DNA from: a virus
Strand: one strand, 5' to 3'
Length of the DNA: 64,000 nucleotides
Virus record (IMG/VR): IMGVR_UViG_3300024518_000034
Span: 96,001-160,000 of that record
Part shown: one piece after another, positions 27,864-56,531 of the stretch
How positions within the stretch are numbered: the first letter of the stretch is position 1
Layout of the letters: every line of letters starts with the position of its first letter
Notes under the pieces: model-generated
What the model was told of the DNA's origin: nothing
The model's input: the letters and a program-made list of their open reading frames with translations, nothing else
Database searches by the model: none
Program-made: the position numbers and the translations under genes

Positions 27864-27864
27864 G

Positions 27865-28110
27865 ATGGATAGAGACGTGCATGATAAATTTAGAGAGTTG
27901 TCTGGTCAAATTAGTGACTTAGCAGATTCCGTACAGAGTTTTGGGAAAAGACTGGAAAAGTCTAAAGAAGGTGAATTAGATAAACATGAAATTATGGTGG
28001 AGATAGAAGAATTGAAGGCGAGACTGACAAAAACTGAAAAAGTGAAGACAGCGGTAAAGAAGAGAGTTGTAAAGAAAAAGAAAGCGACAACAAAGACAAC
28101 AAATGAATAA
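27865..28110 (+). CDS. Coiled-coil hypothetical protein
   Basis: 81-aa heptad-rich ORF. Confidence 0.6.
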   Translation: MDRDVHDKFRELSGQISDLADSVQSFGKRLEKSKEGELDKHEIMVEIEELKARLTKTEKVKTAVKKRVVKKKKATTKTTNE

Positions 28111-28888
28111 GTTAAATGACTTGAGTCCAAGCGAGTGGATACATTGGACGAAAACATGCTGGATGACTGACTATCCGGTAGACTCAACATTTTGCGTTAG
28201 AAAAGAACTTAAGACGACAAAATCACCACAGGCGATGAGAGACATAATTTCGTTTTTCACCAAAGAGGGAGATAGAGTCTTAGACACTTTTGCTGGAGTG
28301 GGGAGTACACTCATAGCAGCCTTGCTATGTGGAAGAGAAGCCGTTGGCATTGAGATGGATGAGAGACACTGTCAGATTTTTGACCAGATTAAAAGTACAT
28401 TCGTCTTGAAGGGCGGCACACTAGTTCCAACTTTAAATAAAGTAGAGGGGCAAATGTGGGCCTCTACGAGGATGATAAACGATGACTGTATGTTGAGATT
28501 ACCAAGGCTCAAGAAGGATTCGGTAGATCTAGTGTTATGCGACCCGCCACACGGTCCACAAGGATATCACGCCAAGGAAGGATTAGGTTCAAGTAAGACC
28601 ACTGAAGAGTTTATTGACAGTATGGCCAAACTTGGCGAAGGCGTTCGTGAAGTGTTGAGGGACGACAAATATTGGGTTATCATAATGGGAGACAGATACC
28701 AGGATGGTGAGTATATTCCACTGACCTACATGCTGGCTACTAAGATGCAGGAGTGTGGGTTTAAACTTAAAGGCATTAAGGTGTGGATCAATCAGGTCAC
28801 ACAGAAGAATCTTAAGGCGTTCAGAGTAGGTGAATCTTTTGTGCCAAATATTGTGCATGAGAACTTAATTATATTGAGGAAAGAATAA
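28103..28888 (+). CDS. Amino (N4-C/N6-A) DNA methyltransferase-like protein
   Basis: VLDTFAGVGS SAM-binding motif before a DPPH catalytic-type motif. Confidence 0.7.
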   Translation: MNKLNDLSPSEWIHWTKTCWMTDYPVDSTFCVRKELKTTKSPQAMRDIISFFTKEGDRVLDTFAGVGSTLIAALLCGREAVGIEMDERHCQIFDQIKSTFVLKGGTLVPTLNKVEGQMWASTRMINDDCMLRLPRLKKDSVDLVLCDPPHGPQGYHAKEGLGSSKTTEEFIDSMAKLGEGVREVLRDDKYWVIIMGDRYQDGEYIPLTYMLATKMQECGFKLKGIKVWINQVTQKNLKAFRVGESFVPNIVHENLIILRKE

Positions 28889-29208
28889 TGTATGGGTACG
28901 TAGTGATGGTAGATGGAGATTGCTGGCATTTGGCGGTGGATCAGGACGAAGCTTTTGATGTTGCGCAATCAGAGGTAAATCAGTACATTTGTGATTTTTA
29001 TAGACATAAATTACCTATGAATGTAGAAAGAGAAGGGTTTGATCCAGATATAAGAGTGCATGTTTTAAATGCAGCGAGCGAACTGGAATTGCCTTTACAA
29101 AAGTGGGTGGACGAAAATTATCAAGAAACAATAGAGTACAATGAAGATCAAGAAAAAAGAGAATACGCAAGATATCTGGAGCTAAAAGAGAAGTATGAAA
29201 ATAGTTAG
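28888..29208 (+). CDS. Hypothetical protein
   Basis: 106-aa ORF coupled to upstream stop. Confidence 0.65.
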   Translation: MYGYVVMVDGDCWHLAVDQDEAFDVAQSEVNQYICDFYRHKLPMNVEREGFDPDIRVHVLNAASELELPLQKWVDENYQETIEYNEDQEKREYARYLELKEKYENS

Positions 29209-29542
29209 TTTTGGATTCAAATATGGTCAGCCTAGGGCGAATCATTATTTTGATGTAAGTTGGATTAAGAATCCTGCTAGAGGAGAGGGCAGAAACTTGT
29301 TTTCACCTATGGATACTGGAATAATAAATGAGGTTCTGCAAGATCAAGCTGTGAAAGATTTTTTAAGCAAAGTAATTCCTTTACTTGATTTCTTGTCCAA
29401 AAAAGATGTAATGGTAGTTGCTTTTGGATGTTCTGCCGGAAGACACAGATCACCGATAATCGCAGAAACGGTTGCTAAGGCACTTTCTAAAGTATATAAA
29501 ATAGATGTTACGATTGAACACAGAGATATAGACCTATGTTAG
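29195..29542 (+). CDS. Stand-alone RapZ C-terminal-domain-like protein
   Basis: IVSFGFKYG, FDV..I.NP, AFGCSAGRHRS; no P-loop domain. Confidence 0.75.
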   Translation: MKIVSFGFKYGQPRANHYFDVSWIKNPARGEGRNLFSPMDTGIINEVLQDQAVKDFLSKVIPLLDFLSKKDVMVVAFGCSAGRHRSPIIAETVAKALSKVYKIDVTIEHRDIDLC

Positions 29543-30279
29543 AAGAAAGAATAGATGAATTGAATCCTTGGTATTATTCAGTACAAATGGGCGGGGGCCG
29601 CCGTACTATGCCAGGCATTGGATCTAAACAGAATCATACTGAACTAATAGATAGGCAAAACTATAGATATAAACTATTGGTTGATCCTATATTAGAAAAG
29701 TATGATTTTAAAAATAAAACCATATTGGATGTAGCTTGTAATTGTGCATATTGGAGTTCACAGTATGTGAAGAAAGGAAGAGCTACAGCAATAATTGGAA
29801 TAGAAGGTAGGAAGGAATATGTAGAACAAGCATATCTATATTGGGGGTTGAATGACTTCCTTCCAGCTACAAACTTGGCCTTTGTCCAGATGGATGTGAT
29901 GGACAAAGAAATGTGGGAAAAGCTTAAAATAGATGATCAAGTGGATTTTACATTATGCGCTGGAATACTGTATCATGTGAGTGATTACAAATGGTTGGTG
30001 CAAAAGATCTGTAATGTTACGAAAGAAGCGATTTTGATAGATACGAGGGTGTCTAAAGATGAAAAGAAGATTGAGGAACCAGGAGGTTGGTGTTTCGACG
30101 GAGTAGGAGACAAAGTAGTTAAGGTGAATCCTAACACGAAAAGCATTTGTAAAATTTTGGTAGATAATGGTTTTAAACATGTAGAAATAATTCCTCATGC
30201 GGGTCCAGTTCCTCCAGAGATGAAGAACAATGACAACTATGAGACAGGCGGAAGAGTAACTATACTAGCTAAAAAATGA
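29536..30279 (+). CDS. Class I SAM-dependent methyltransferase
   Basis: ILDVACNCAY, IGIEGR, CAGILYH. Confidence 0.75.
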   Translation: MLEERIDELNPWYYSVQMGGGRRTMPGIGSKQNHTELIDRQNYRYKLLVDPILEKYDFKNKTILDVACNCAYWSSQYVKKGRATAIIGIEGRKEYVEQAYLYWGLNDFLPATNLAFVQMDVMDKEMWEKLKIDDQVDFTLCAGILYHVSDYKWLVQKICNVTKEAILIDTRVSKDEKKIEEPGGWCFDGVGDKVVKVNPNTKSICKILVDNGFKHVEIIPHAGPVPPEMKNNDNYETGGRVTILAKK

Positions 30280-30830
30280 AAGAATTAGAAAAGTACAAAA
30301 GAATAGTGGTTTCAGGATGTCAGCGTAGTGGCACAACTATTTTGACAAAGATGATAGCACATACGCTGGGATATACCAAACTAGATGAGTTTCAGGTATA
30401 TCCACACAATCTGGCTAATATGTCTGAGACATTAAAGAGAGAAAAAGTAGTAATTCATAGTCCTCAGTTGACTTCTAGATTACATCAGATAACTGCGCCA
30501 TCCACATGCATTGTTTGGATTACAAGACCGTTTGGCGAAATAAGAAAATCGATGAATCGTATAGGTTGGCAGATTGAAGAAGAGGAAAGGCAAAAATATA
30601 TACATAGGTTTGCAAAGATAGTAAAAGGTATTAATTATAACCAACCAATAGAAAAACTAAAGCATGATTTCTGGCAGTGGCAAAAGCAAAGAATGAAGGT
30701 TGATTGGATAGAACATAAGTACGAAAGTGAATATATGAAAACTCATGAGTTGTTTAGGAATAGTGAACAACGTAAAGAATTCAACCCAAAACAAACAAGT
30801 GAGGATAATCGATCAGGAAGAGATTGGTAA
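30276..30830 (+). CDS. Sulfotransferase-family protein 1
   Basis: IVVSGCQRSGTT PAPS-binding loop; VWITRP...S. Confidence 0.7.
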   Translation: MKELEKYKRIVVSGCQRSGTTILTKMIAHTLGYTKLDEFQVYPHNLANMSETLKREKVVIHSPQLTSRLHQITAPSTCIVWITRPFGEIRKSMNRIGWQIEEEERQKYIHRFAKIVKGINYNQPIEKLKHDFWQWQKQRMKVDWIEHKYESEYMKTHELFRNSEQRKEFNPKQTSEDNRSGRDW

Positions 30831-31805
30831 ATGAAGCCGCTATGTTCAGTACAGATAGAACTTACAAATCACTGTAATTACAAATGTAAGTTTTGCCCAC
30901 AAGCTTATTATAAAGATCCTCTATATAAAGATACCCCTTTTGATCGAAAGAAGGGGTATATGTCGTTTGAGACATTTAAGAGATCAGTGACGCAGTGCAA
31001 GAACTTTGCACAAGAGATTAACTTCTCCTATTTTGGAGAACCTACCCTACACCCAGAATATCGCAAGATGTTCAGGTGGTTAAAACATAACAAAGGACAT
31101 CTTAGAATAATTCTAAACTCAAATCTTTCATTAGTTACAAATGATATATTTGATGCATGGATGGATACAGGTGTGACACAATGTAGGTTTAGTATAGACG
31201 CAGCTACTTCTGATACCTACGAGAAGGTAAGACCAGGAGGGCCAGTTAAGGATTATTTGACTGGAGAGTTTAAGTCATATCAAGACAGATTAACAAAGAT
31301 AAAAGAAAAAGTGATTGTGTGGTTTGGTAAGAAAGGTCATTGTCCAACAAGGCATGTCTACGTTGTATGTAAAAGAAACAAGAGCGAGATAGTACCTTAT
31401 CTGAGGTTTTGGCAACCATGGTTGGGACCAAATGATGAGATTGTAGTTAAAAGTGTGTTGACCTACGGTGGCGTGATCCACAAAGGGACACCAGACTTTG
31501 ATGGCATTACTGACAGCAATCCTTGCAATGTTTGGTCACAGGACAGCATGACCATAGCTTGGAATGGCGATATAACACCGTGTAATCTCGATGTAAACGT
31601 CGGACTAAGGATTGGCAATATTAAAAATAATACGTTGAAGGAGCTACACAGGGGTCAAAAATGGCAGCAATTGAAGAAACTTTCTGATAGGAGAGAAATC
31701 TCACCTTGCAAGACTTGCCACGATGCAAACAATTGGAGTAAGAATGTAGTGGTTAAGAAAGGTGACAAGATAAATAATGCAATCGCCAATTCTTTTTCTA
31801 GCTAG
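30831..31805 (+). CDS. Radical SAM enzyme with SPASM/twitch domain
   Basis: CNYKCKFC; GEPTLH; GDITPC...IGNI...CKTC. Confidence 0.9.
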   Translation: MKPLCSVQIELTNHCNYKCKFCPQAYYKDPLYKDTPFDRKKGYMSFETFKRSVTQCKNFAQEINFSYFGEPTLHPEYRKMFRWLKHNKGHLRIILNSNLSLVTNDIFDAWMDTGVTQCRFSIDAATSDTYEKVRPGGPVKDYLTGEFKSYQDRLTKIKEKVIVWFGKKGHCPTRHVYVVCKRNKSEIVPYLRFWQPWLGPNDEIVVKSVLTYGGVIHKGTPDFDGITDSNPCNVWSQDSMTIAWNGDITPCNLDVNVGLRIGNIKNNTLKELHRGQKWQQLKKLSDRREISPCKTCHDANNWSKNVVVKKGDKINNAIANSFSS

Positions 31806-32571
31806 AGGCCATTCAGGAACATCTATCTTATCGAAGATACTTGAAGCTAACGGAGTATTTATGGGAGATCATAAATCGCTCAATCCTACTTACGATTCAT
31901 TGCCATGGACCTATGATTTCCAAAGGAAACTTCTGCCAATGTGTTGGGAATACGGCAAAGGATGTTCGCCTAAGAAACCAGAAGTTATGACTGTTGCGGC
32001 TAGATGTTTAGCGAGACATATGGTAGGATATAATGGTGGACGATGGGGGATAAAGACGTGCGCTGGAATGTTTTCTTATCCAATGTGGAAGATGGTATTT
32101 CCAGATGCTAAGTATATTTATCTAACCAGAGATGGTAGAGATGTGATTCGCTCAGGACAGGGATACTTCCACATGACCAATGAAAGTTCAAGAGAGAAGG
32201 ATTGGGAGTATTTTAAGATAATAACGTTTGGTATATCGAACGACATAGATAAGTGTCACTTTAAGATACCTGATAAGCCAAACAAGAATGACGAAGTAAT
32301 GAAGAATAGACATTGGATCCAGGCGAAGTCATGGCTGGAACATAAAAAAATGTTTAACAGGATTGAGTCTGACAATATATTTCATCTTAAGTATGAGGAC
32401 GTTTGTAGAAAACCACATAGGTCGTTGGAGGGATTGTTTAACTTTTTAGAAATGCCTTATAAGTGTGAGAGCTATGTAAATAAAAACTTTAGAGGAAGAG
32501 CGGGATCGTGGAAATTATCTAGTGTTGGAGTTGATAAAAGGGCGCATAAGTTAATGGGGTATGAATCATGA
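31777..32571 (+). CDS. Sulfotransferase-family protein 2
   Basis: ARGHSGTS; FPDAKYIYLTRDGRDVIRS; LKYEDV. Confidence 0.8.
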   Translation: MQSPILFLARGHSGTSILSKILEANGVFMGDHKSLNPTYDSLPWTYDFQRKLLPMCWEYGKGCSPKKPEVMTVAARCLARHMVGYNGGRWGIKTCAGMFSYPMWKMVFPDAKYIYLTRDGRDVIRSGQGYFHMTNESSREKDWEYFKIITFGISNDIDKCHFKIPDKPNKNDEVMKNRHWIQAKSWLEHKKMFNRIESDNIFHLKYEDVCRKPHRSLEGLFNFLEMPYKCESYVNKNFRGRAGSWKLSSVGVDKRAHKLMGYES

Positions 32572-33326
32572 GAGTAGCAGTATTAATAGTTGGTCGCAAT
32601 AGACCAGACTTAGAAAAAAAACAAAACAAACAATTTGATGCCTTAGAAAAACAAGAGCATGAACATGAAGTAGATAGAATCTTTATTGAATGTAGTGAGA
32701 AAGATTTTAAGGGAAAATGTTATGGACACAATAGGGGACTAGATGATCTAAAAAAACATGGTAGGTTTGAAGACTATGACTATTTTCTTTTCATGCACAA
32801 TGATGTGTTTTTCCCAAATAGAGAATACGGCGATCCAATAGATGTCATGATAACAACCATGGAGAACCATAAGCAAATAGGAGTGTTAAGTCCAACTGAG
32901 CATGGCAGTTCATATCCTGATGCTCAGCCTAGACCTTTTCCTGAATCATACTGGAGAAAAGTAAGTACATGTGATTATCTTTGCATAATGATGAGAAGAA
33001 GTACTTTGGAAAACGTAGGATTCCTTAATCCAGATTTCAAATATTGCTGGGGCGCTATTCATGAATTGTCTTACAAGTTGTACAAAAGAGGGCTGTGTGT
33101 AGCCTATGAAGATAAAGTGCAAATGAGACATCTAGGTGGGTCAACATATGGTAAGAAGACCGGCACAATAAGTAGAGATGAATATCAGAAGAGAGCCAAG
33201 AGGTTCGCTGCAAATTACTTCAAGAAGACTTATGGGGATAGGTGGGACGAGGAGTTTACTAAGCACTTACCAAAAGATATAAAGATTAATACGTATAAGG
33301 AACATAAAAAACTATGGGAATCATAG
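32568..33326 (+). CDS. GT2 (GT-A fold) glycosyltransferase
   Basis: GHNRGL, FMHNDV, GFLNPDF..CWG, HLGGST. Confidence 0.75.
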   Translation: MRVAVLIVGRNRPDLEKKQNKQFDALEKQEHEHEVDRIFIECSEKDFKGKCYGHNRGLDDLKKHGRFEDYDYFLFMHNDVFFPNREYGDPIDVMITTMENHKQIGVLSPTEHGSSYPDAQPRPFPESYWRKVSTCDYLCIMMRRSTLENVGFLNPDFKYCWGAIHELSYKLYKRGLCVAYEDKVQMRHLGGSTYGKKTGTISRDEYQKRAKRFAANYFKKTYGDRWDEEFTKHLPKDIKINTYKEHKKLWES

Positions 33327-33691
33327 ATAGGTTTTGGAAAAAAATAAAAGCAAATTATTCTAGTGGCATGTGTGACGTTATGGCTATAGCGATAGCTAGA
33401 AAATACAATAAGCCGTTGGGTGTTGTAAGAGGTTTTTTCTTTGATGAAACAGAACAAGATGAATATTATATAGATTGCCACATGGTGGTAATTATGGAAG
33501 ACAATAAGGTGGCTGACTCACAGGGAGTGAGAGATCTGGAAGAGGTTTTAAGTTTGTGTGTGTGGGATGCTAAACCAAACAGGATAGAGTTAATCCCTGT
33601 GTCGGAAGAAGAGGCTATGCATTGTATGACTGCAGATGGTGTAACGGAAGAAGAAATAAATGAAACAATGGAGGATGTACCAGAACTATGA
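33314..33691 (+). CDS. Putative papain/transglutaminase-like (Cys-His-Asp) protein
   Basis: Y..GMCDVMAIAI, DCHMVV, VADSQG. Confidence 0.45.
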   Translation: MGIIDRFWKKIKANYSSGMCDVMAIAIARKYNKPLGVVRGFFFDETEQDEYYIDCHMVVIMEDNKVADSQGVRDLEEVLSLCVWDAKPNRIELIPVSEEEAMHCMTADGVTEEEINETMEDVPEL

Positions 33692-35734
33692 GAATAAGAA
33701 TGGGACCAGACCAAAGATATTTAGAGGTATCTGAAAAGACTACTGATTTTCATCCACTATTAAAAAAGTTAGCGCAGTTTCCCCCTGAGGAAAACTATTT
33801 AGATCCAGACGCTTATGTTCAACAATTGGAACCTCCGCAGCCAGTTGCACCAACTGACGTTCAGGAAAATATGAATTGCCCACATTGCGGGAGTATTTTC
33901 CCAACAAGTCGCTTAGAAAATGATCACGCGGTATGTGACAATTGCAATTATTATATTGAATTAAAATGTGATGATTGCGATAAAAATCTTCTCTTTGGAG
34001 AAGAAAGAAAAGATCCTTGGGGCAATGAAATATGTGAAGAATGTTTTGAAGGAAGTTATGTAGTATGTGTGAATTGTGAGGAAACGGTAAAAGAGGAGGA
34101 CGAAAAGAAAGACGAAGATGGTGACTCGCTTTGCGAGGAATGTTTTTACGATAATTATACATACTGCGAGCCGTGCGGAGATGCTATAAAAATAGATGAT
34201 GCAGCTTTTGTAGACGAAGATAGGTGGATGTGTAAAGAGTGTGCTAAAGATTTTTACTGTGATGAATGTATGGGATATAAAACAAACACGCAGGATCGTC
34301 AAATAGGTGAGGAAAATAAAAAACTATGTGATGAGTGTTTTATGTCGATGTGGGAAAATGGTGAAATAGCAACTTGTGACCAATGTCATGCTGTAGTTAC
34401 AGGAGACAACATTCACTATACAGAGGATGGATCTGAGTGTAATGAATGCTATGGAGGCAATGATAACATTAAAAGTTATTATGAATTAAAAGAGGCGGCA
34501 GAGGGGAATCTTGAAACCCAAAGCGATTTGGAATATTACAAAGATATGTATCCTAACTTATTTAGTGTGTCGGAAGATTATAATAGGAAGAAAAAAAAGT
34601 CTTGGAATTATATTCAAAAGTGGTCAGGCGGATTTGACTATGTTCCAGAAATGGATGTTGGAGTAACTAGACCATCTACTGATTATGAGGGAACATACAT
34701 TGAGTTTGATTTGTCAGTTAATGAAGGAGAAAGATTGGCAGAAAAAATAGGAATGGACGAAAGTCAAATGTGGGATGTGTTTAAAAGATGCAACGATTAT
34801 CACCCATGTTTAGTAAGTTCAGACGCAGACAGAATGATAGTGTCCAGAGTTTTGGTGGATGATAACGGAGACTGGAATGTTAAACTAATGCAAGGTTCTA
34901 TAAATCAAGAAGCAAAAGCAGAAATGTCAAGAATTGAGGATGAAATAAGAGGGGAAGAGCGCAAGTGTAGGGACTGCGGCGGTGGCGGGAAAAGTTATTC
35001 TTGGCGAGGAGGGCCGTGTAAAGCTTGTAATGGAAAAGGCGTCGTTAAGATTATTAATGAAGAACAATTGGAGGGGTGGGATAAAACGAGGGGAGAAGAG
35101 GAAGCGGAAAAGCTTTACCCAAAAGAATATGGAGGAGAAGATCCATTAAAAGGACTTGAAGAGAGGGGAAAAGACTATTATCTTAAACAGGACTTACAAC
35201 AGAAAATGGAACAATTAGATAAAATTGTAAAACTAACAAATGGTGCATATATAGCAGCATATGATTGGATAAAGAACCTGGCTAAACAAAAAGGAAAAAA
35301 ATGTTATGTAGAAGTGCCAGAAGGCCAAGCGCGTCAACATCCAAATGCACCTAAAATAAGTCTTGAAGTTATATATGGTGGAATACCATTTTTGATGGGA
35401 TTTGAAAAAGAGAAAATTAAGAGGGAGTTAGAAGGTGAGGGAGAGAAAGGTGTGGAACAAAAAGGAAAATCAAGATATAGGATGGCTAAGGCAAACAATT
35501 GGGATTTTGAAGATATTGCAGATATGGCAATATTTGACCCTCTACTTAGATAGGAAACAATATGAGAATAAGAATGGGACCAGACCAAAGACATTCGTTA
35601 GATAGAGCAACAGAGGCTTTAAGAAAAGCTTTTAATATTGACAGTGAGAGTGATACACCAGCTAGAAATGATGAAGGATTTTTAAGATATTTAGAGGTAT
35701 CTGAAAAGACTACTGATTTTCATCCACTATTAAA
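33687..35734. repeat. Split direct repeat: 31-bp block A and 51-bp block B
   Basis: A at 33687-33717 and 35561-35591; B at 33714-33764 and 35684-35734; contiguous in copy 1, 96 bp apart in copy 2. Confidence 0.9.
33688..35553 (+). CDS. 621-aa multi-zinc-finger protein
   Basis: 14 CxxC motifs (12 tandem plus a DnaJ-type pair). Confidence 0.8.
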   Translation: MRIRMGPDQRYLEVSEKTTDFHPLLKKLAQFPPEENYLDPDAYVQQLEPPQPVAPTDVQENMNCPHCGSIFPTSRLENDHAVCDNCNYYIELKCDDCDKNLLFGEERKDPWGNEICEECFEGSYVVCVNCEETVKEEDEKKDEDGDSLCEECFYDNYTYCEPCGDAIKIDDAAFVDEDRWMCKECAKDFYCDECMGYKTNTQDRQIGEENKKLCDECFMSMWENGEIATCDQCHAVVTGDNIHYTEDGSECNECYGGNDNIKSYYELKEAAEGNLETQSDLEYYKDMYPNLFSVSEDYNRKKKKSWNYIQKWSGGFDYVPEMDVGVTRPSTDYEGTYIEFDLSVNEGERLAEKIGMDESQMWDVFKRCNDYHPCLVSSDADRMIVSRVLVDDNGDWNVKLMQGSINQEAKAEMSRIEDEIRGEERKCRDCGGGGKSYSWRGGPCKACNGKGVVKIINEEQLEGWDKTRGEEEAEKLYPKEYGGEDPLKGLEERGKDYYLKQDLQQKMEQLDKIVKLTNGAYIAAYDWIKNLAKQKGKKCYVEVPEGQARQHPNAPKISLEVIYGGIPFLMGFEKEKIKRELEGEGEKGVEQKGKSRYRMAKANNWDFEDIADMAIFDPLLR

Positions 35735-35756
35735 CGAAGAAAAAAATGAAGAATAA
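35562..35756 (+). CDS. 64-aa protein whose two ends are duplicated at the start of the 621-aa gene
   Basis: MRIRMGPDQR...YLEVSEKTTDFHPLL shared. Confidence 0.6.
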   Translation: MRIRMGPDQRHSLDRATEALRKAFNIDSESDTPARNDEGFLRYLEVSEKTTDFHPLLNEEKNEE

Positions 35757-36507
35757 AAATGCTATAGTTGGGCTAGTTAGAGGTTATGCAAATCCTAAAG
35801 GATACCATATGCTTAGGAGAAGAAATAGACTTCTAATGGAGAACTATTATAAACACAATAAAAACGCAGATGTGATTATATTCCATGAAGGAAATATTAA
35901 AAAAGAGCATCAAGAAGAATTAAAGAAAGATATACCTATTAAGTTTCACAGCGTGGGTAATCTATTTAAAGCACAGGGCTCTAATAAAACAAACCTGGGA
36001 TATAAGCACATGTGTCGTTTTTATGCTATGCAGATGGCACCAATACTTGACAAGTGGGGATATGAAAAGTATTGGAGGTTGGACGATGATAGTTTTCTCT
36101 TAAAAAAAGTAGAATATAATGTGTTTAAGTTTATGGAAAACAACCAGACGGTATATGGTTATATACATACGAAATGGCCAGTCGCTCCGCAGGCCAAACT
36201 GACAGAGAGAACATTACTGCCATTGGTGAAGAAGCATATGAGCGAAGATGGTTTAAAGTGGGGTAAATTAGATGGGCAGAATCATTACAGCAACTTTCAT
36301 CTTTCGCAAGTTAAGTTTTGGATGAAACCAGAAGTTAGAGAATTTCTTGATCACATTGATGAAAGTGGTGGCATATATGCTCATAGGTGGGGCGACCATA
36401 TAATTCAAACATTAATATTGAAATTATTTGCAATGGAAAAGGAAGTAAAGAAAATGCCGTGGATACACTACAATCATGGCAGTCATAATTTTGAGGTGAA
36501 AACATGA
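35746..36507 (+). CDS. GT15-like (Kre2/Mnt1-type) glycosyltransferase without TM anchor
   Basis: YKHMCRFY, YWRLDDD, YSNF, GGIY.HRWGD. Confidence 0.75.
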   Translation: MKNKNAIVGLVRGYANPKGYHMLRRRNRLLMENYYKHNKNADVIIFHEGNIKKEHQEELKKDIPIKFHSVGNLFKAQGSNKTNLGYKHMCRFYAMQMAPILDKWGYEKYWRLDDDSFLLKKVEYNVFKFMENNQTVYGYIHTKWPVAPQAKLTERTLLPLVKKHMSEDGLKWGKLDGQNHYSNFHLSQVKFWMKPEVREFLDHIDESGGIYAHRWGDHIIQTLILKLFAMEKEVKKMPWIHYNHGSHNFEVKT

Positions 36508-37097
36508 AGTTTCCAGTAAAAGTGCCATTTAAATATGATCAGCATGGAGAGGTAAAATGCATTGTTGACTATATTAGACAGAACAATATAACTGTGCCAA
36601 CAATGTATGTAGATGTTGGGGCATCAGACGGAGTATGTAATAGTAACTCAAGATATTTTGTCCATCAGGGATGGAGGACGTGGCTTATCGAACCATGCCC
36701 TGTAAACTTTAAACTTTTGAAAACAAATACAAATTTCATGGGTAGTGCAGTTGCGGTGAATTATGCAGTTGGAAATGAAAATGGAAAAGTAAAATTTAAA
36801 TCAGAAGGTGGGCTATCTAAGGTTACTCATAGTGGAAATATTGAAGTGCCAATGATAATGGTAAAAGAATTGGTTGAAAAAATTAAGACAAAAGATATAG
36901 GAATTTTAGACGTGGACACAGAGGGTGGAGAAGAAGGAATACTTTTACAGTTTATGAAGTTGAAAATATATCCTCATTTTATTATTGTAGAACACCAATG
37001 TCATGAACCAAAAATAAAAGAACAAGAAAGAATATTATCGCCAAGATATAAGAGAATAGCCAGAAAAGGCGTTAATGACATATGGCACTTAAAATAA
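36504..37097 (+). CDS. FkbM-family methyltransferase
   Basis: VDVGASDG..SNS, LIEP, ILDVDTEGGE. Confidence 0.8.
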   Translation: MKFPVKVPFKYDQHGEVKCIVDYIRQNNITVPTMYVDVGASDGVCNSNSRYFVHQGWRTWLIEPCPVNFKLLKTNTNFMGSAVAVNYAVGNENGKVKFKSEGGLSKVTHSGNIEVPMIMVKELVEKIKTKDIGILDVDTEGGEEGILLQFMKLKIYPHFIIVEHQCHEPKIKEQERILSPRYKRIARKGVNDIWHLK

Positions 37098-37720
37098 TAG
37101 TTACGGGACAACCGAGAACTGGTACAAGTTTTCTTACAAGTTTAGTGGCTAAGATGAGCGGGTATTCTCTGGGACCAAAGGGTGGATTGAAAAAACAAGA
37201 TAGACACAATCCTAACGGGTATTTTGAATCTGTAGATATAATGCAAATAGAGGATGCGTTGTTGCAAAAATTGGGAGGATCGTACCAAAAGATACCAGAC
37301 AAAAAGAGTAATTGGCATAAGGAGTGTGATGGAATAAAGGCAATACTAAGGGGTACGATAAATAGAGATAAGATAGAAATAATTAAGTCTCCTAGAGGAA
37401 TTATGATAGGTGACATATATTATGATATGTATCCTAAAGCTGTATGGTTCTATACAAAAAGAGAACCAGAGGTAACGTACAAGAGTAGGTGGGGCAAAAG
37501 GATTTCTTTGAAAAAATGGAAGAAAATTTGTGCAGAGAGAGAGATAGTTTGGAGAAAGTCAAAAGTAAGTAGAAGAGTTTGGAATGTAAACTATGAAAAC
37601 TTTGAAACAAATTTTAAAGGTGAGTGGTTAAGAATAATACGGGCGTTTAGGTCAGAGGGGATAAAGATAAATTGTTCATTTGAAGAATGTGAAGCGTTAT
37701 GGAAACCAAGAAGAAAATAA
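37082..37720 (+). CDS. Sulfotransferase-family protein 3
   Basis: VTGQPRTGTS; NPNGYFE; IKSPR. Confidence 0.75.
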   Translation: MALKIIVTGQPRTGTSFLTSLVAKMSGYSLGPKGGLKKQDRHNPNGYFESVDIMQIEDALLQKLGGSYQKIPDKKSNWHKECDGIKAILRGTINRDKIEIIKSPRGIMIGDIYYDMYPKAVWFYTKREPEVTYKSRWGKRISLKKWKKICAEREIVWRKSKVSRRVWNVNYENFETNFKGEWLRIIRAFRSEGIKINCSFEECEALWKPRRK

Positions 37721-38553
37721 AGATAGCATTTAAGAGGTGGTGGACTCCTTGGAATATGAATTATTTCAGAGAGAGATTTCCATTTATGACTAGTCAATAC
37801 GATTTTGTTGAATCAAAGAATCCAGACTATGTAATGTATTCAGTATTTGGGAATGAGCCATTGCCTAAGAATTGCACTAAGGTTTTCTATACGGCAGAAA
37901 ATGCAGCGCCAAATATGAGTGAATGCGACTATGCTATATCCTTTAGAAGAGATATAGGAGGCAAGCACTTTAGGTTACCAAATTATGCTGTGAGATACAA
38001 TCATTGCAAGAATCATGATTTGATAGATTTGGTAAGAAACGACAGACCGCGAAGTCATGTGAACTTTAAAGATCGCAAGTTCTGTGTTTTCCTTCATAGA
38101 AGACCATCTGAACCAAGAGATAGTTTCGTAAAAGAGCTTTCTAAATATAAAAGAGTAGACTGTCCAGGGATAGTTCACAGAAATATGAATGTGGAAATTC
38201 CTAAGGGTGGAGACGCTAAGATTAACTTCTTTAAGCAGTACAAATTTGCAATGGCATTTGAAAATAGCAGAGGAAATGGATATGTAACGGAGAAATTAAC
38301 AGATGCTATGATGGCAGGCTGTATACCTATATATTGGGGTGATCCAGACGTAAAATTAGATTTTAATACTAGGAGTTTTATCAACGTTTTGAACTATGGT
38401 AATTTTGATAGGGCAATTAAAAGGATTAAAAACATAGATAGTAACGATGAGGCATGTAAAAAAATATTAGCACAGCCCTGGGTAAATGAAGACTCGTGGA
38501 TTTTATTAAATAATCATAAAACAGAGAAATTTTTTAGGAGAATATTCGGATGA
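37699..38553 (+). CDS. GT10 alpha-1,3/4-fucosyltransferase-like protein
   Basis: FYTAEN, RKFC, YKFAMAFENS.G.GYVTEKL.DA, IPIYWG. Confidence 0.85.
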   Translation: METKKKIKIAFKRWWTPWNMNYFRERFPFMTSQYDFVESKNPDYVMYSVFGNEPLPKNCTKVFYTAENAAPNMSECDYAISFRRDIGGKHFRLPNYAVRYNHCKNHDLIDLVRNDRPRSHVNFKDRKFCVFLHRRPSEPRDSFVKELSKYKRVDCPGIVHRNMNVEIPKGGDAKINFFKQYKFAMAFENSRGNGYVTEKLTDAMMAGCIPIYWGDPDVKLDFNTRSFINVLNYGNFDRAIKRIKNIDSNDEACKKILAQPWVNEDSWILLNNHKTEKFFRRIFG

Positions 38554-39341
38554 AAGTACACCAAGATTCTTTTTTATTTATAACATTAGATAGTTGTAGA
38601 TGGGATACGTTTAGGGATGCTCACGCACCTAATATAAAAGGAATCGGTCCCCATAGGAAAACCTTTACACAGGCTACTTACACTTATCCAGCACATCAGT
38701 CGTTTTTCATGGGTTTTCTTCCAACGGATAAGTCAGGACAAAGATATTGGGACAGTAGAAGATCGAGAATATTTCACTTAGTGTCGCCCACTAGCACCAA
38801 GGAGTCTGAAGCATATGTGAAGCTAAAGGGTAGAAATATAGTCGATGGATTTAACAGAAAAGGATATAGGACGCTAGGACTAGGTGCAATGGGGTGGTTC
38901 AATAAAGAATTACCAGCGGGTAAAGTTTTGACAGACGATTTTCAAAGATTTGTATTTACTGGACCATTTGATATTAAAAGACAAATAGATGTAGCATTGA
39001 ACGATGCAGTGAAAAATGCTAATAAACCGCTTTTCACATTTATAAATGTAGGTGAGACACATCATCCATATTGGCATAAGGGTGCAACGTGGGATCAGAC
39101 AAATTACTGCATGCCATTTGGCACTTTCAATAATAGGGCTGAATGTCAGAAGAGACAGCGAGGATGTCTAGAATACGTCGATAGAAAAATCAAGCACCTG
39201 TTGCAAATTTTCAGCAATGCGTCTATAATAGTATGTGCAGATCATGGAGATGTACATGGAGAGGATGGATTATGGGGACACAGCGTAGTACACCCGACCG
39301 TAATGACGGTGCCGATGGTGATGAAGTTAAGAAAAAAATAG
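38550..39341 (+). CDS. Alkaline-phosphatase/sulfatase-superfamily enzyme with Thr at the nucleophile position
   Basis: ITLDSCRWD, TYTYPAH, ETHHPY, ADHGD...WGH. Confidence 0.75.
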   Translation: MKVHQDSFLFITLDSCRWDTFRDAHAPNIKGIGPHRKTFTQATYTYPAHQSFFMGFLPTDKSGQRYWDSRRSRIFHLVSPTSTKESEAYVKLKGRNIVDGFNRKGYRTLGLGAMGWFNKELPAGKVLTDDFQRFVFTGPFDIKRQIDVALNDAVKNANKPLFTFINVGETHHPYWHKGATWDQTNYCMPFGTFNNRAECQKRQRGCLEYVDRKIKHLLQIFSNASIIVCADHGDVHGEDGLWGHSVVHPTVMTVPMVMKLRKK

Positions 39342-39365
39342 AGATGTTATTTGGAAGCTTGAAGA

Positions 39366-40172
39366 TTGATGTGTGATCTAACGGTAGTAGTTTCAACATA
39401 CAACAGACTTAAGCACCTGAAGAAATCACTTCATTGTTACGAGAGGCAAACTCATAAAAACTTTGAGGTGGTTGTCACAGATGACGGTTCGTCGGATGGA
39501 ACAAGAGAGTATATAGAAGAAGCTATAAAATCTGAGTTTTATGACTTTGACCTTAGTTACGTTAGACAGCCAGATAGAGGATACGATCTCGCTGGGGCAA
39601 GAAATAGAGGGATCGAGTTAGCTGAAGGAAAGAGAATACTTTTTACAGACAACGACATATGGTTTTCCCCTAGATCTGTCGAATTCCACGTAAAGATAAA
39701 ACCTAACAATATTGGAGTGAGTTCTATATATTGGTTGAACAAAGAGTTTAGCAATAGATTATTAAGGGATGATCCAATACCAGAGAATTCGGAATTTGCG
39801 AAGAGAGAAAACATACAGAGTAGAGAGGTTAGAGGGAATATAAATATCCCATGTCCAGATAACTGTTATGGTGGGGCAGTATCTTATCATAGAGGTTTAC
39901 TGAGACATGCTGGAGGTTTTGACGCTGAAGGATTTTTAAACAAATACGGCTTTGAAGACATAGATTTGGCTCAGAGACTAATGAGATCTCCACTTGGCGT
40001 GCCTAGTGGAGGAAGGGCTGGATATGAAGTGGCTAACACCTCTATTGCCTTTCACATATGGCACCCATATGGTAAGTATAGGGGAGACATAGGGAATGCT
40101 TTTGGTGGAAGAAGAATTAGAGAAGGCTATTACAAAAGGGTACACAAGGGGTCGTTGAAAGGGAAAATATAA
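39366..40172 (+). CDS. GT2 glycosyltransferase
   Basis: VVVSTYNR, VVTDDGSSDG, ARNRG, FTDND, GGFD...YGFEDIDL. Confidence 0.9.
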   Translation: MMCDLTVVVSTYNRLKHLKKSLHCYERQTHKNFEVVVTDDGSSDGTREYIEEAIKSEFYDFDLSYVRQPDRGYDLAGARNRGIELAEGKRILFTDNDIWFSPRSVEFHVKIKPNNIGVSSIYWLNKEFSNRLLRDDPIPENSEFAKRENIQSREVRGNINIPCPDNCYGGAVSYHRGLLRHAGGFDAEGFLNKYGFEDIDLAQRLMRSPLGVPSGGRAGYEVANTSIAFHIWHPYGKYRGDIGNAFGGRRIREGYYKRVHKGSLKGKI

Positions 40173-40939: not shown

Positions 40940-40943
40940 GAGA

Positions 40944-56528: not shown

Positions 56529-56531
56529 TAA

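What the first reader, a model, noticed from the sequence alone, without database searches (positions are those of the whole stretch)
29195..40172. Phage operon for a sulfated, fucosylated, methylated glycan
Seen: a tightly overlapping run of genes (many ATGA couplings) encoding two GT2s, a GT15-like and a GT10-like glycosyltransferase, three sulfotransferases with PAPS-binding loops, FkbM and class I methyltransferases, a radical SAM/SPASM enzyme and an alkaline-phosphatase-superfamily enzyme. I see no signal peptide or TM anchor in any of them. Established: GT10 transfers fucose from GDP-Fuc, GT15 transfers mannose from GDP-Man, and phage-encoded virion glycosylation and DNA sugar hypermodification are both known. 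Inference: soluble enzymes imply a cytoplasmic acceptor, so the phage may build a branched, O-methylated, multiply sulfated glycan on virion proteins or DNA. A phage-made sulfated fucose glycan would be very unusual. No PAPS or GDP-sugar synthesis genes are in this window.
Basis: partly seen in the sequence, partly recalled or inferred. Interest (0 to 1): 0.85.

Follow-up and report, generated by a model that had tools for sequence, protein, structure and literature searches.

The report
Phage glycan-building and sulfating operon
An uncultured 192-kb phage carries a tightly packed run of soluble enzymes that can build a sugar chain and add fucose, methyl and sulfate groups to it; such gene blocks recur in large environmental phages and nobody has yet shown what they decorate.

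Summary
Window 29195-40172 is part of a 16-kb, 21-gene, translationally coupled gene train (27471-43415). It encodes GT10, GT15-like, GT2 and a second GT-A glycosyltransferase, one firm and two probable PAPS-type sulfotransferases, FkbM and class I methyltransferases, a radical SAM/SPASM enzyme and an alkaline-phosphatase-superfamily enzyme. All are predicted soluble.

New here:
- The phage has its own APS kinase (CysC) 33 kb upstream, plus a second glycosyltransferase island.
- The AP-like enzyme has an invariant Thr nucleophile, so it is not a formylglycine sulfatase. It is fused or adjacent to sulfotransferases in another viral contig and in a third of 79 bacterial loci.
- The RapZ-C-like first gene sits next to the same GT-A gene in two other viral contigs.
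- Distant phages with 28-30% identical portals carry analogous GT10 + FkbM + two-sulfotransferase cassettes.

The acceptor is unresolved. Virion protein is my favoured guess and host-surface glycan is the main rival. DNA is poorly supported, because no hydroxymethyl-pyrimidine route was detected.

Published cyanophage "cell-wall/LPS" clusters already contain fucosyltransferases. This scan has also noted similar sulfating islands on DNA from at least 66 other genomes. I therefore rate this a new variant of a known kind.

The parts
29195..29542 (+). RapZ C-terminal-domain-like protein (115 aa) with a C-x5-R-S phosphate-binding-type loop
   Evidence: PF22740 1.8e-22. E. coli RapZ CTD 5o5s 1.2e-7. 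Lies directly upstream of the 252-aa GT-A homologue in viral contigs L101 and L102.
29536..30279 (+). Class I SAM methyltransferase (247 aa)
   Evidence: Several class I methyltransferase Pfam models at 1e-4, all below cut-off. TIGR04290 family 2.3e-13.
30276..30830 (+). Compact sulfotransferase-like P-loop protein (184 aa)
   Evidence: Sulfotransfer_3 1e-3, 5' loop only. 25 of 40 family members hit Sulfotransfer_3. Invariant G14, R17, S18, G19, T20, R84 and S92. In the pLDDT-93 model, kinases score Z 10 and TPST scores Z 9, so fold alone does not decide.
30831..31805 (+). Radical SAM / SPASM enzyme (324 aa)
   Evidence: PF04055 3e-14 and PF13186 2e-12. No NCBIfam model is reached at its cut-off. 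A similar rSAM/SPASM sits in the GT15-like/GT10 cassette of L064.
31777..32571 (+). Sulfotransferase (264 aa)
   Evidence: Sulfotransfer_3 1.3e-11 and Sulfotransfer_1 1.7e-10, both over cut-off. 5'-PSB (RGHSGTS) and 3'-PB (R..S) motifs read directly from the sequence.
32568..33326 (+). GT-A fold glycosyltransferase (252 aa), GT2-like
   Evidence: No Pfam hit. 77 homologues, some named GT2 by their sources and some fused to methyltransferase domains. AF2 pLDDT 91.3. Foldseek matches GT-A enzymes at 1e-7.
33314..33691 (+). Acidic 125-aa ORF, unknown
   Evidence: No family hit.
33688..35553 (+). 621-aa Cys-rich protein with repeated CxxC zinc ribbons; probably a recent insertion into the operon
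   Evidence: Only weak Zn-finger hits. Low-confidence likeness to viral LIM/Amidoligase_2 clusters. Its first 78 nt are a 97-100% copy of the start of the next ORF.
35562..35756 (+). 64-aa ORF whose 5' end is duplicated at 33687-33764
   Evidence: Direct repeats D1 and D2. The peptide motif occurs only at these two places in the genome.
35746..36507 (+). GT15-like (Kre2/Mnt1-type) glycosyltransferase (253 aa)
   Evidence: PF01793 2.3e-20. 1s4n 1.6e-16, with equivalents of Y220, E247 (as D in a DDD motif), D361 and H388 aligned. Homologue next to GT10 in L064.
36504..37097 (+). FkbM-family methyltransferase (197 aa)
   Evidence: PF05050 4.4e-12. 18 FkbM-homologue hits across the 78 GT10-bearing viral loci, several lying directly beside the GT10 gene.
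37082..37720 (+). Probable sulfotransferase (212 aa)
   Evidence: Sulfotransfer_3 4.5e-4, full length (5-188 against 2-209 of 216) but below cut-off. PSB loop (QPRTGTS) and R..S motif in the sequence. Probe hits in 17 bacterial AP-gene neighbourhoods.
37699..38553 (+). GT10 alpha-1,3/4-fucosyltransferase-type enzyme (284 aa), catalytic core only
   Evidence: PF00852 1.8e-18 and PF18025 5.2e-17. 941 homologues at about 38-40% identity. Invariant E67-N68 and FEN..Y.TEK motifs.
38550..39341 (+). Alkaline-phosphatase-superfamily enzyme, STM4013/SEN3800-related (263 aa), Thr nucleophile
   Evidence: NF038075 3.8e-47. Invariant D14, T45, H49, D231, H232. Fused to a sulfotransferase domain in viral L099 and bacterial L116. 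A sulfotransferase-like ORF lies within 8 kb in 26 of 79 bacterial loci.
39366..40172 (+). GT2 glycosyltransferase (268 aa)
   Evidence: PF00535 6e-25. EpsD-type NF041875 5e-30, below its cut-off.
27471..43497 (+). Inferred transcription unit holding the cassette. Upstream are small ORFs and an N6/N4 DNA methylase; downstream are a PD-(D/E)XK nuclease and a class II RNR; it ends at a strong terminator-like hairpin.
   Evidence: Gene junctions. The only strong terminator-like hairpin with a T-run lies at 43466-43497. Flanking families.

Best explanation
The block is a co-transcribed cassette that acts in the cytoplasm of the infected cell to assemble and tailor a glycan.

Assembly. Four nucleotide-sugar glycosyltransferases build a short hetero-oligosaccharide. 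They are a GT2, a second GT-A enzyme, a GT15-like enzyme that probably uses GDP-Man, and a GT10 that probably uses GDP-Fuc supplied by the host.

Tailoring. FkbM and class I methyltransferases O-methylate the chain. One firm and two probable PAPS-dependent sulfotransferases O-sulfate it. The phage's own APS kinase (CysC, genome 91,927-92,451) raises PAPS supply from host APS.

Accessory enzymes. The Thr-nucleophile AP-superfamily enzyme belongs to the sulfation module. It most plausibly hydrolyses a phosphoester tied to sulfation, such as the PAP by-product, PAPS/APS, or a phosphate on the acceptor. The radical SAM/SPASM enzyme is an accessory redox tailoring step. The RapZ-C-like protein probably binds a phospho-sugar or another phosphate-bearing ligand for the adjacent GT-A module.

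Shown versus inferred. Shown: family assignments, conserved catalytic motifs, solubility, gene coupling, recurrence of the same enzyme combination in distant phages, and the AP-sulfotransferase linkage. Inferred: donor sugars, the order of steps, and the roles of the AP, rSAM and RapZ-C proteins.

Acceptor. It is not determined. I favour phage virion protein(s), giving a sulfated, methylated, fucose-bearing coat.
For: - Family and motif evidence.
- All cassette proteins lack TM-strength segments.
- The train has 21 genes, a largest gap of 24 nt and a single strong terminator after the RNR gene.
- CysC at 2e-53, plus a second island with two GT2, a GT1-like, a GT4-like and a methyltransferase gene, in the same genome.
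- Recurrence in phages with 28-30% identical portals. L060/G036 has a methyltransferase, two GT10, a TylF-type methyltransferase, two GT2, FkbM, Sulfotransfer_3, Sulfotransfer_2 and a GT1-like gene. L039/G025 has two GT10, a GT-A, FkbM, Sulfotransfer_3, Sulfotransfer_2 and GT2.
- L064 joins GMD, an Fcl-like gene, GT15-like, GT10 and rSAM/SPASM in one cassette. This ties GT10 to GDP-fucose and the rSAM to glycan cassettes.
- 18 FkbM-homologue hits across the 78 GT10 loci, several directly beside the GT10 gene.
- AP-sulfotransferase fusion in viral L099 and in bacterial L116. A sulfotransferase-like ORF lies within 8 kb in 26 of 79 bacterial loci.
- RapZ-C and the GT-A gene are adjacent in L101 and L102.
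- For a virion acceptor: the operon sits directly upstream of the structural module (portal 5 kb downstream). The order cassette-then-portal on one strand is also seen in G025. No + strand ORF in the 192-kb record has more than three hydrophobic segments, so the phage encodes no initiating, flippase or polymerase-type membrane protein. Virion glycosylation by phage GT and methyltransferase genes is established in mycobacteriophages (Freeman et al. 2023, as cited in PMC12619734).
Against: - No acceptor is identified, and no structural protein shows an obvious glycosylation tail.
- The nearest homologues of each enzyme are bacterial at 40-48% identity. They are of the kind found in surface-polysaccharide loci, and the published reading of cyanophage clusters is host-surface modification (PMC9602691).
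- Two of the three sulfotransferases are below Pfam cut-offs. The 184-aa protein cannot be separated from small P-loop kinases by fold.
- No GDP-Fuc or GDP-Man synthesis genes occur in the phage.
- By BLAST, the cassette as a whole is shared only with one near-identical fragment, L007. It is therefore mosaic, not a conserved unit.
Confidence: 0.45

Rival explanations
1. Host-surface remodelling. The same soluble enzymes act on the host's lipid-linked (undecaprenyl-PP) O-antigen, EPS or capsule intermediates at the inner leaflet. The host's own flippase, polymerase and ligase then export the altered, sulfated, methylated and fucosylated polymer. This would change adsorption of other phages, grazing or aggregation during infection.
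For: - The closest homologues are bacterial enzymes at 38-48% identity. The GT2 resembles the EPS enzyme EpsD.
- The AP-like family and its sulfotransferase neighbours occur in Prochlorococcus, Synechococcus and Planctomycetota genomes.
- This is the published interpretation of the P-SSM2, S-SSM7 and S-SCSM1 clusters (PMC9602691). S-SKS1 carries GT10 among nucleotide-sugar epimerases.
- Soluble GT10 enzymes such as HpFucT act on LPS (my own knowledge).
Against: - The phage encodes no initiating phosphoglycosyltransferase, flippase, polymerase or any polytopic membrane protein.
- It looks like a large lytic-type phage with a short infection window in which to export a polymer. Lysogeny genes were not examined.
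- The cassette lies beside the structural module rather than in an early-gene or moron-like position.
Confidence: 0.3
2. Modified peptide or small molecule. The radical SAM/SPASM enzyme, TPST-like sulfotransferases, methyltransferases and glycosyltransferases tailor a peptide (RiPP-like) or another small acceptor rather than a polysaccharide or a virion protein. The AP-like enzyme takes part as in the bacterial rSAM-linked STM4011-4015 cassettes.
For: - Some bacterial homologues of the AP-like enzyme carry a C-terminal PqqD peptide-binding domain. NCBIfam names the family after a Salmonella locus whose neighbour gene gives its name to a radical SAM family (STM4011).
- The rSAM has weak matches to peptide maturases.
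- The sulfotransferase loops resemble the PRSGTT loop of TPST, and TPST is among the best structural matches (Z 9, 149 residues aligned).
- Small acidic ORFs lie inside the operon.
Against: - No recognisable precursor peptide, protease or exporter is present.
- The phage AP-like protein lacks PqqD.
- The analogous cassettes in G036 and G025 have no radical SAM gene.
- Four or more glycosyltransferases plus a GDP-fucose link (L064) fit an oligosaccharide better.
Confidence: 0.1
3. Mosaic of independent auxiliary genes. The genes are neighbours because large phages accumulate morons in this region, and they do not make one common product.
For: - Only L007 shares the whole arrangement.
- The 621-aa gene is an evident insertion.
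- RapZ-C and the GT-A gene are contiguous in L101 and L102 but 3 kb apart here.
- Unrelated genes (DNA methylase, nuclease, RNR) sit in the same gene train.
Against: - The same functional combination (GT10, FkbM, sulfotransferases, GT2) recurs with unrelated sequences in distant phages.
- AP-sulfotransferase fusions exist.
- The phage carries its own CysC.
- Translational coupling runs throughout the train.
Confidence: 0.07
4. DNA hypermodification. The glycosyltransferases and tailoring enzymes decorate a modified base in the phage genome.
For: - Phage glycosyltransferases related to LPS and teichoic-acid enzymes glycosylate 5hmC with mono- to trisaccharides (10.1101/2023.12.21.572611).
- An N6/N4 DNA methylase and a PD-(D/E)XK nuclease flank the cassette.
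Against: - No ThyA-type dNMP hydroxymethylase and no C5 DNA methyltransferase were found. No TET/JBP match was found either, but its control was uninformative.
- No 5-hmdU kinase-type gene was noted, though this was not searched specifically.
- Sulfated or GT10/GT15-made DNA glycans are unknown.
Confidence: 0.03

Closest known systems
'LPS' / 'cell wall synthesis and modification' gene clusters of large marine cyanophages (P-SSM2, S-SSM7, S-SCSM1: PMC9602691; S-SKS1: NC_020851)
   Same: These are phage-borne, co-directional sets of soluble glycosyltransferases that include fucosyltransferases. In S-SCSM1 and in L064 they also include GDP-fucose synthesis. Function is untested. S-SKS1 has a GT10 that is 34% identical.
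   Different: - Neither the S-SCSM1 paper (zero occurrences of 'sulfotransferase') nor the S-SKS1 region I viewed lists a sulfotransferase, AP-like enzyme, radical SAM/SPASM, GT15-like or RapZ-C gene.
- This phage is not T4-like; its portal is distantly like that of phage G.
- Apart from GT10, no cassette gene is shared with S-SKS1.
Mycobacteriophage virion glycosylation (Freeman et al. 2023, cited in PMC12619734)
   Same: Phage-encoded soluble glycosyltransferases, with methyltransferases, lie near structural genes and glycosylate capsid and tail-tube proteins in the cytoplasm.
   Different: - Those cassettes hold only one to a few glycosyltransferases, with no fucosyltransferase of GT10 type and no sulfation.
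- The acceptor here is unknown.
Giant-virus glycan machineries: chlorovirus PBCV-1 capsid N-glycans and Megavirinae fibril clusters (my own knowledge; not read here)
   Same: Virus-encoded cytosolic glycosyltransferases and methyltransferases build fucose-containing, O-methylated glycans on virion proteins independently of host machinery.
   Different: Those are eukaryotic viruses, no sulfation is described, and the enzyme families are unrelated.
Rhizobium Nod-factor decoration: NodZ (fucosyl), NoeI (2-O-methyl-fucose), NoeE/NodH (sulfate) with NodPQ for PAPS (my own knowledge; NodZ reference listed in PMC9602691)
   Same: The chemistry has the same logic. Fucose is added, then O-methylated and O-sulfated by soluble enzymes, with a dedicated PAPS supply. 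The FkbM - sulfotransferase - GT10 triplet at 36504-38553 mirrors it.
   Different: NodZ is GT23, not GT10, and the acceptor there is a lipo-chitooligosaccharide. The resemblance rests on recall and was not tested by sequence.
STM4013/SEN3800 family hydrolase (NCBIfam NF038075), named after a Salmonella locus next to STM4011, which names a radical SAM family
   Same: Same AP-superfamily family by profile (161 bits, 3.8e-47, aligned over the whole length). A radical SAM enzyme is also present in the phage operon.
   Different: The score is below the equivalog cut-off of 250. The phage rSAM is not an STM4011 member (30 bits against a cut-off of 200). In phages and many bacteria the partner is a sulfotransferase rather than an rSAM.
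Anaerobic sulfatase-maturating enzyme with a Cys/Ser-type sulfatase
   Same: An rSAM/SPASM enzyme and a 'Sulfatase' Pfam-domain protein lie in one operon.
   Different: The nucleophile position is an invariant Thr in an F-T-Y-x-[SA]-H context, not C/S-x-P-x-R. The anSME model scores 39 bits against a cut-off of 349.
Phage DNA sugar-hypermodification gene clusters (Pyle et al., 10.1101/2023.12.21.572611)
   Same: Phage glycosyltransferases recruited from LPS or teichoic-acid enzymes, found in metavirome gene clusters.
   Different: Those clusters are defined by a C5-methyltransferase plus a 5mYOX/TET enzyme, and neither was detected here.

Membership tests
CAZy GT10 (alpha-1,3/4-fucosyltransferase) | Both GT10 domains (FucT_N and GT10 C-terminal) above the curated score | tested here: met
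   PF18025 at 62.5 bits (cut-off 27.2) and PF00852 at 67.3 bits (cut-off 23.9).
CAZy GT10 (alpha-1,3/4-fucosyltransferase) | Conserved catalytic and donor-binding motifs (the Glu of the ..TGEN.. segment and FEN...Y.TEK) | tested here: met
   E67, N68, F187, E188, N189, Y195, T197, E198 and K199 are invariant in a 26-sequence alignment. Mapping to HpFucT residues is from memory.
CAZy GT10 (alpha-1,3/4-fucosyltransferase) | Transfers L-fucose from GDP-Fuc | not testable with these tools
   Indirect only: in L064 a GT10 homologue lies in one cassette with GMD (5e-150) and an Fcl-like reductase.
CAZy GT15 (Kre2/Mnt1 alpha-1,2-mannosyltransferases) | Sequence match to the family profile and to a solved member | tested here: met
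   PF01793 at 73.7 bits (cut-off 25), covering profile positions 149-323 of 325. 1s4n at 1.6e-16.
CAZy GT15 (Kre2/Mnt1 alpha-1,2-mannosyltransferases) | Metal-binding and catalytic residues of Kre2p (Y220, E247, D361, H388) | tested here: met
   The alignment gives Y to Y, E247 to D (within a DDD motif), D361 to D and H388 to H. Residue roles are from memory of the Kre2p structure paper.
CAZy GT15 (Kre2/Mnt1 alpha-1,2-mannosyltransferases) | Full catalytic domain including the N-terminal half | tested here: inconclusive
   Residues 1-79 of the phage protein are not matched by the profile.
CAZy GT2 / GT-A fold (252-aa protein, 32568-33326) | GT-A Rossmann-like fold with an acidic motif and a downstream His | tested here: met
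   pLDDT 91.3. Foldseek probability 1.00 to ppGalNAc-T, TarS, majastridin and WrtF. Invariant D79 and H188.
CAZy GT2 / GT-A fold (252-aa protein, 32568-33326) | Match to GT2 sequence profiles | tested here: not met
   No Pfam or NCBIfam hit, and the profile search against PDB found nothing. The GT2 label comes only from source names and ESM-Atlas neighbours.
PAPS-dependent sulfotransferases | Profile match above cut-off | tested here: met
   264-aa protein: PF13469 at 45.6 bits (cut-off 27) and PF00685 at 41.2 bits (cut-off 22).
PAPS-dependent sulfotransferases | Profile match above cut-off for the 212-aa and 184-aa proteins | tested here: inconclusive
   They score 21.0 and 19.9 bits against a cut-off of 27. 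For the 184-aa family, 25 of 40 members hit PF13469, with a best E-value of 7e-8. Fold search ties kinases (Z 10) with TPST (Z 9).
PAPS-dependent sulfotransferases | 5'-phosphosulfate loop (x-[KR]-[ST]-G-[ST]-[ST]) and a 3'-phosphate motif (Arg, then Ser eight residues later), with no Walker-A Lys | tested here: met
   The motifs were read from the translations. R17-S18-G19-T20, R84 and S92 are invariant in the 184-aa family. Motif definitions are from memory.
Formylglycine sulfatase with an anSME maturase | C/S-x-P-x-R nucleophile motif in the sulfatase | tested here: not met
   The position holds an invariant Thr45, with His49 in place of Arg.
STM4013/SEN3800 family (NF038075) | Score at or above the curated equivalog cut-off | tested here: not met
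   161 bits against 250, although the alignment is full length (3-257 against 5-257 of 261).
Phage 5hmC/5hmU DNA-glycosylation clusters | A source of hydroxymethyl-pyrimidine: a ThyA-type hydroxymethylase, or a C5-methyltransferase plus TET/JBP | tested here: not met
   PF00303 and PF00145 are absent while their controls were positive. PF12851 is absent but its control was uninformative. The record is about 90% complete.
Wzx/Wzy- or ABC-type surface-polysaccharide pathway encoded by the phage itself | Initiating phosphoglycosyltransferase, flippase, polymerase or permease (polytopic membrane proteins) | tested here: not met
   No + strand ORF in the 192-kb record has more than three hydrophobic 19-mers. 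Host genes could still supply these functions. Family profiles were not searched.
Mycobacteriophage-type virion glycosylation | Glycans attached to capsid or tail proteins | not testable with these tools
   The only support is position next to the structural module.

The most novel reading that the evidence does not exclude
The phage coats its own virion proteins with a sulfated, O-methylated, fucose- and mannose-containing glycan made entirely by phage enzymes, with PAPS supply raised by phage CysC. This would be the first virus-encoded sulfated glycan. The Thr-nucleophile AP-like (STM4013-related) enzyme would be a previously unrecognised obligatory partner of bacterial and phage sulfotransferases, for example a dedicated PAP/PAPS phosphohydrolase.
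Probability: 0.3. Interest if true: 0.8.

Novelty: new variant of a known kind. Interest (0 to 1): 0.55.

Why it matters
Glycan gene clusters are known in large marine phages, but none has a demonstrated product. The role of phage sulfotransferases is explicitly called unclear in the literature (PMC10580990).

This cassette is a compact, fully soluble set of about 12 enzymes with the phage's own APS kinase, so it could be reconstituted in vitro or in a surrogate host. If the product sits on the virion, it would be a sulfated, fucoidan-like surface. Such a surface could affect adsorption, stickiness to marine gels, grazing and decay. If it sits on the host, it would be a new form of infection-time surface conversion.

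Two side results can be tested independently. First, the STM4013-type AP-like enzymes are linked to sulfotransferases across bacteria, Prochlorococcus included. Second, a RapZ-C-like protein is a conserved neighbour of a viral GT-A enzyme.

Tried and rejected
- Megablast of the 11-kb block against 50,697 phage records found no match.
- Single-protein scans of IMG/VR with GT10, the AP-like enzyme and the portal found only one near-identical 9-kb fragment, L007.
The 43-kb, 28-kb and 9.4-kb contigs holding the 91%, 86% and 46-66% identical relatives could therefore not be read.
- The S-SKS1 glycan block shares only GT10 with this cassette.
- I considered an rSAM that matures a sulfatase (anSME logic). 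Rejected because the nucleophile is an invariant Thr and the anSME score is far below cut-off.
- I considered that the MRIRMGPDQR start of the 621-aa protein might be the shared N-terminal 'address tag' noted elsewhere in this genome. Rejected because the motif occurs only at the two repeat copies.
- PADLOC gave only generic viperin-like rSAM hits, so there is no sign of a defence system.
- The tail-fibre protein found no phage match and the RNR's matches spanned many host groups, so neither gave a host clue.
- Profile searches of the GT-A family against PDB found nothing; fold search was needed.
The narrower 'pdb_via' search could not separate sulfotransferase from kinase folds.
- Literature searches found no paper describing a phage cassette that combines fucosyl-, sulfo- and methyltransferases. 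The only paper mentioning STM4013 was not opened.

Full report
**Setting.** The window is bases 96,001-160,000 of a 192,308-bp linear IMG/VR virus record, estimated about 90% complete. Nearly all of its genes lie on the + strand. It is a tailed phage. The ORF at 45334-47202 is a portal (PHROG 3e-56), and its nearest cultured relative is Bacillus phage G at 33.6% identity. No cultured phage shares DNA with the region.

| Coordinates | Assignment | Evidence |
|---|---|---|
| 37699-38553 | GT10 | both domains over cut-off |
| 35746-36507 | GT15-like | 2e-20; 1.6e-16 to yeast Kre2/Mnt1 |
| 39366-40172 | GT2 | 6e-25 |
| 36504-37097 | FkbM methyltransferase | 4e-12 |
| 30831-31805 | radical SAM + SPASM | 3e-14 and 2e-12 |
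| 31777-32571 | sulfotransferase | two families over cut-off |
| 38550-39341 | alkaline-phosphatase superfamily | Sulfatase domain 3e-7; NF038075 4e-47 |

In the GT15-like protein the Kre2p positions Y220, D361 and H388 are conserved, and E247 is replaced by Asp inside a DDD motif.

Four assignments are weaker:
- The second 'GT2' (32568-33326) has no profile hit. A pLDDT-91 AlphaFold model built from 26 homologues is a clear GT-A fold. Several homologues are called GT2 by their sources.
- The 212-aa protein (37082-37720) aligns to Sulfotransfer_3 over its whole length but scores below the cut-off.
- The 184-aa protein (30276-30830) matches only the 5' loop on its own. However, 25 of 40 members of its family hit Sulfotransfer_3. 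Its invariant residues (G14, R17-S18-G19-T20, R84, S92) fit the two PAPS-binding motifs and lack a Walker-A lysine. Fold comparison cannot separate it from small P-loop kinases: Z 10 for gluconate/APS kinases against Z 9 with 149 aligned residues for tyrosylprotein sulfotransferase.
- The class I methyltransferase (29536-30279) is below Pfam cut-offs but matches TIGR04290 at 2e-13.

None of the proteins has a TM-strength hydrophobic segment.

The genes are tightly coupled. From 27471 to 43415 there are 21 genes. The largest gap is 24 nt, 15 of 20 junctions overlap, and five junctions are ATGA overlaps. The only strong terminator-like hairpin with a T-run lies at 43466-43497, after the RNR gene. 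The transcription unit is therefore larger than the finding. It also contains an N6/N4 DNA methylase, a PD-(D/E)XK nuclease and a class II RNR.

1. *The phage has its own APS kinase.* It lies at genome 91,927-92,451 (2e-53), 3.6 kb before the window start. A second island at genome 78.5-88.3 kb holds two GT2, a GT1-like, a GT4-like and a methyltransferase gene. There is no SDR epimerase/dehydratase, NDP-sugar pyrophosphorylase or ATP sulfurylase. GDP-fucose, GDP-mannose and APS must therefore come from the host.

2. *The AP-like enzyme is not a sulfatase in the usual sense.* In an alignment of 27 family members, the nucleophile position is an invariant Thr (T45, with H49), flanked by the usual metal ligands (D14, D231, H232). 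This is the signature of phosphodiesterase or phosphotransferase members of the superfamily, not of formylglycine sulfatases. The radical SAM enzyme is therefore not its maturase.

3. *The AP-like family is linked to sulfotransferases.*
   - In viral contig L099 it is fused to a sulfotransferase domain in one 683-aa ORF, next to a GT4 gene.
   - In viral contig L100 it sits among GT2, capsule-synthesis and methyltransferase genes.
   - Of 79 bacterial loci from many phyla, 26 have a sulfotransferase-like ORF within 8 kb. These include Planctomycetota, Acidobacteriota, Prochlorococcus and Synechococcus. Two were scored as the same ORF: L116 is a clear fusion, while L134 may only be overlapping ORFs. 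Six more lie within 300 nt. This count is a lower bound, because only my own probe sequences were used.
   - Some bacterial members instead carry a C-terminal PqqD domain.

4. *The first gene of the block is a stand-alone RapZ C-terminal domain* (1.8e-22; RapZ structure 1e-7), with a C-x5-R-S loop. Its homologue lies directly upstream of the homologue of the 252-aa GT-A gene in two other viral contigs (L101 and L102). It therefore belongs to the glycosylation module. In this phage, the methyltransferase - sulfotransferase - rSAM - sulfotransferase sub-block separates the pair.

5. *The 621-aa Cys-rich zinc-ribbon gene looks like a recent insertion.* It is flanked by a 97-100% identical duplication of the 5' end of the following 64-aa ORF.

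**Recurrence elsewhere.** GT10 genes are common in IMG/VR, with 370 confirmed stretches. By BLAST, only the near-identical fragment L007 shares the arrangement seen here. The functional combination, however, recurs with unrelated sequences:
- Nine of 43 GT10-bearing viral records have Sulfotransfer_3 matches.
- In L060/G036 the order is methyltransferase, GT10, TylF-type methyltransferase, GT2, FkbM, an unassigned ORF, GT10, Sulfotransfer_3, Sulfotransfer_2, GT2, GT1-like.
- In L039/G025 (and its near-twin G027) the order is GT10, GT-A, FkbM, two unassigned ORFs, GT10, an unassigned ORF, Sulfotransfer_3, Sulfotransfer_2, GT2.
- These three records have portals 28-30% identical to this phage's, so they are distant members of the same broad lineage.
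- L064 joins GT2, GMD, an Fcl-like reductase, an aminotransferase, GT15-like, GT10, a GT-D-like gene and an rSAM/SPASM in one cassette. This ties GT10 to GDP-fucose and shows that GT15-like and rSAM/SPASM genes belong in such cassettes.
- There are 18 FkbM-homologue hits across the 78 GT10 loci, several directly beside the GT10 gene.

The contiguous FkbM - sulfotransferase - GT10 - AP-like genes at 36504-39341 therefore look like a 'fucose add, methylate, sulfate' module.

**Mechanism.** The best-supported reading is a cytoplasmic assembly line.
- *Assembly.* GT-A and GT-B transferases add sugars, including fucose and probably mannose.
- *Methylation.* SAM-dependent methyltransferases O-methylate the chain.
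- *Sulfation.* PAPS-dependent sulfotransferases O-sulfate it, with PAPS boosted by phage CysC.
- *AP-like enzyme.* It serves the sulfation step. My guess is removal of the inhibitory by-product PAP, control of PAPS/APS, or removal of a phosphate from the acceptor. That is inference from the fusion and neighbourhood data alone.
- *rSAM/SPASM enzyme.* It matches no specific family and is absent from the G036 and G025 cassettes. I treat it as an optional redox tailoring step.

**The acceptor.** It is not determined.

For virion proteins:
- The operon lies immediately upstream of the structural module.
- G025 keeps the same order.
- The phage encodes no polytopic membrane protein that could initiate, flip or polymerise a lipid-linked glycan.
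- There is a precedent in mycobacteriophages (cited in PMC12619734).

For host-surface glycan:
- All enzymes have bacterial homologues at 38-48% identity.
- This is the published interpretation of the cyanophage clusters (PMC9602691).

Against DNA:
- No ThyA-type hydroxymethylase and no C5-methyltransferase were found, and there was no TET/JBP match.
- These define the known glycosyl-DNA routes (10.1101/2023.12.21.572611).

A peptide or small-molecule product stays possible. The grounds are the PqqD link of the AP-like family and the TPST-like loops of the sulfotransferases.

**Comparison with what is known.**
- Cultured cyanophages carry glycan clusters with fucosyltransferases. S-SKS1 has a GT10 that is 34% identical, set among nucleotide-sugar epimerases. 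S-SCSM1 has GMD, Fcl, three fucosyltransferases and five glycosyltransferases, and P-SSM2 and S-SSM7 have LPS clusters (PMC9602691). The S-SCSM1 paper contains no mention of sulfotransferases.
- Single sulfotransferase genes have been reported in marine and glacier phages, with their function called unclear (PMC10580990, PMC8290583).
- I found no paper describing a phage cassette that combines fucosyl-, methyl- and sulfotransferases.
- Earlier notes of this scan describe similar sulfating glycan islands on DNA from at least 66 other genomes. The class is therefore widespread and this is not its first sighting within the scan.

**Verdict.**
- *Observation:* confirmed.
- *Interpretation:* partly supported. 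The chemistry is plausible and the PAPS link strengthens it. The acceptor inference is unsupported and the rarity is overstated.
- *Novelty:* a new variant of a known kind.
- *Particular to this example:* phage CysC, three sulfotransferase-like genes, a GT15-like enzyme, an rSAM/SPASM, the sulfotransferase-linked Thr-type AP-like enzyme and the RapZ-C/GT-A pair.
Closer relatives' contigs and expression data could therefore not be examined.

Noticed in passing
window 33687-33764 and 35561-35734: The first 78 nt of the 621-aa zinc-ribbon gene are a 97-100% copy of the start of the next 64-aa ORF. The two differ by a 96-nt in-frame stretch bounded by AAGAYATT microhomology. This looks like the scar of a recent gene insertion inside the operon.
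   Followed up: partly
window 29195-29542; L101:9561-10768; L102:9624-10801: A stand-alone RapZ C-terminal-domain protein with a C-x5-R-S loop is the conserved upstream neighbour of a viral GT-A glycosyltransferase in three viral lineages. In L101 and L102 the pair is followed by a gene with a methyltransferase part like genome 83,017-83,580.
   Followed up: partly
L099:2822-4873; L116:3480-5804; L104-L182: STM4013-type AP-like enzymes with an invariant Thr nucleophile are fused or adjacent to sulfotransferase-like genes. This holds in a viral contig and in 26 of 79 bacterial loci, including four Prochlorococcus genomes. Other bacterial members carry a C-terminal PqqD domain. The family may be an unrecognised partner of sulfotransferases.
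   Followed up: partly
window 54658-62187: Tail-fibre-like genes (LamG-like, Gly/Thr/Ala-rich) have GC 0.53-0.62 in a phage of about 0.38 GC. This suggests recent acquisition from a GC-richer source. The one fibre-like protein searched (58029-60305) found no match among cultured phages.
   Followed up: partly
genome 78,530-92,451 (L009:2530-16448), upstream of the window: A second glycosyltransferase island (two GT2, Glyco_trans_1_2, a GT4-like gene and a methyltransferase) is interleaved with glutamine synthetase, an HNH endonuclease, an isocitrate-lyase-like/CitE-like pair and a WGR-domain protein. It is followed by a sigma-70 region 4 protein and CysC.
   Followed up: partly
L064:27-12722: A 14-kb viral contig carries GT2, GMD, an Fcl-like reductase, a DegT aminotransferase, GT15-like, DUF4254, GT10, a GT-D-like gene and an rSAM/SPASM, directly upstream of a family B DNA polymerase.
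   Followed up: partly
window 43466-43497: A strong 14-bp-stem hairpin with a T-run follows the class II RNR gene. It marks the end of the 16-kb gene train and the boundary with the structural module.
   Followed up: no
window 33688-35553: The 621-aa protein has about six tandem CxxC...CxxC zinc ribbons and a DnaJ-like CxxCxGxG element. The ESM-Atlas model has low confidence (pTM 0.24). Its nearest structural neighbours are viral clusters carrying LIM and Amidoligase_2 domains.
   Followed up: partly
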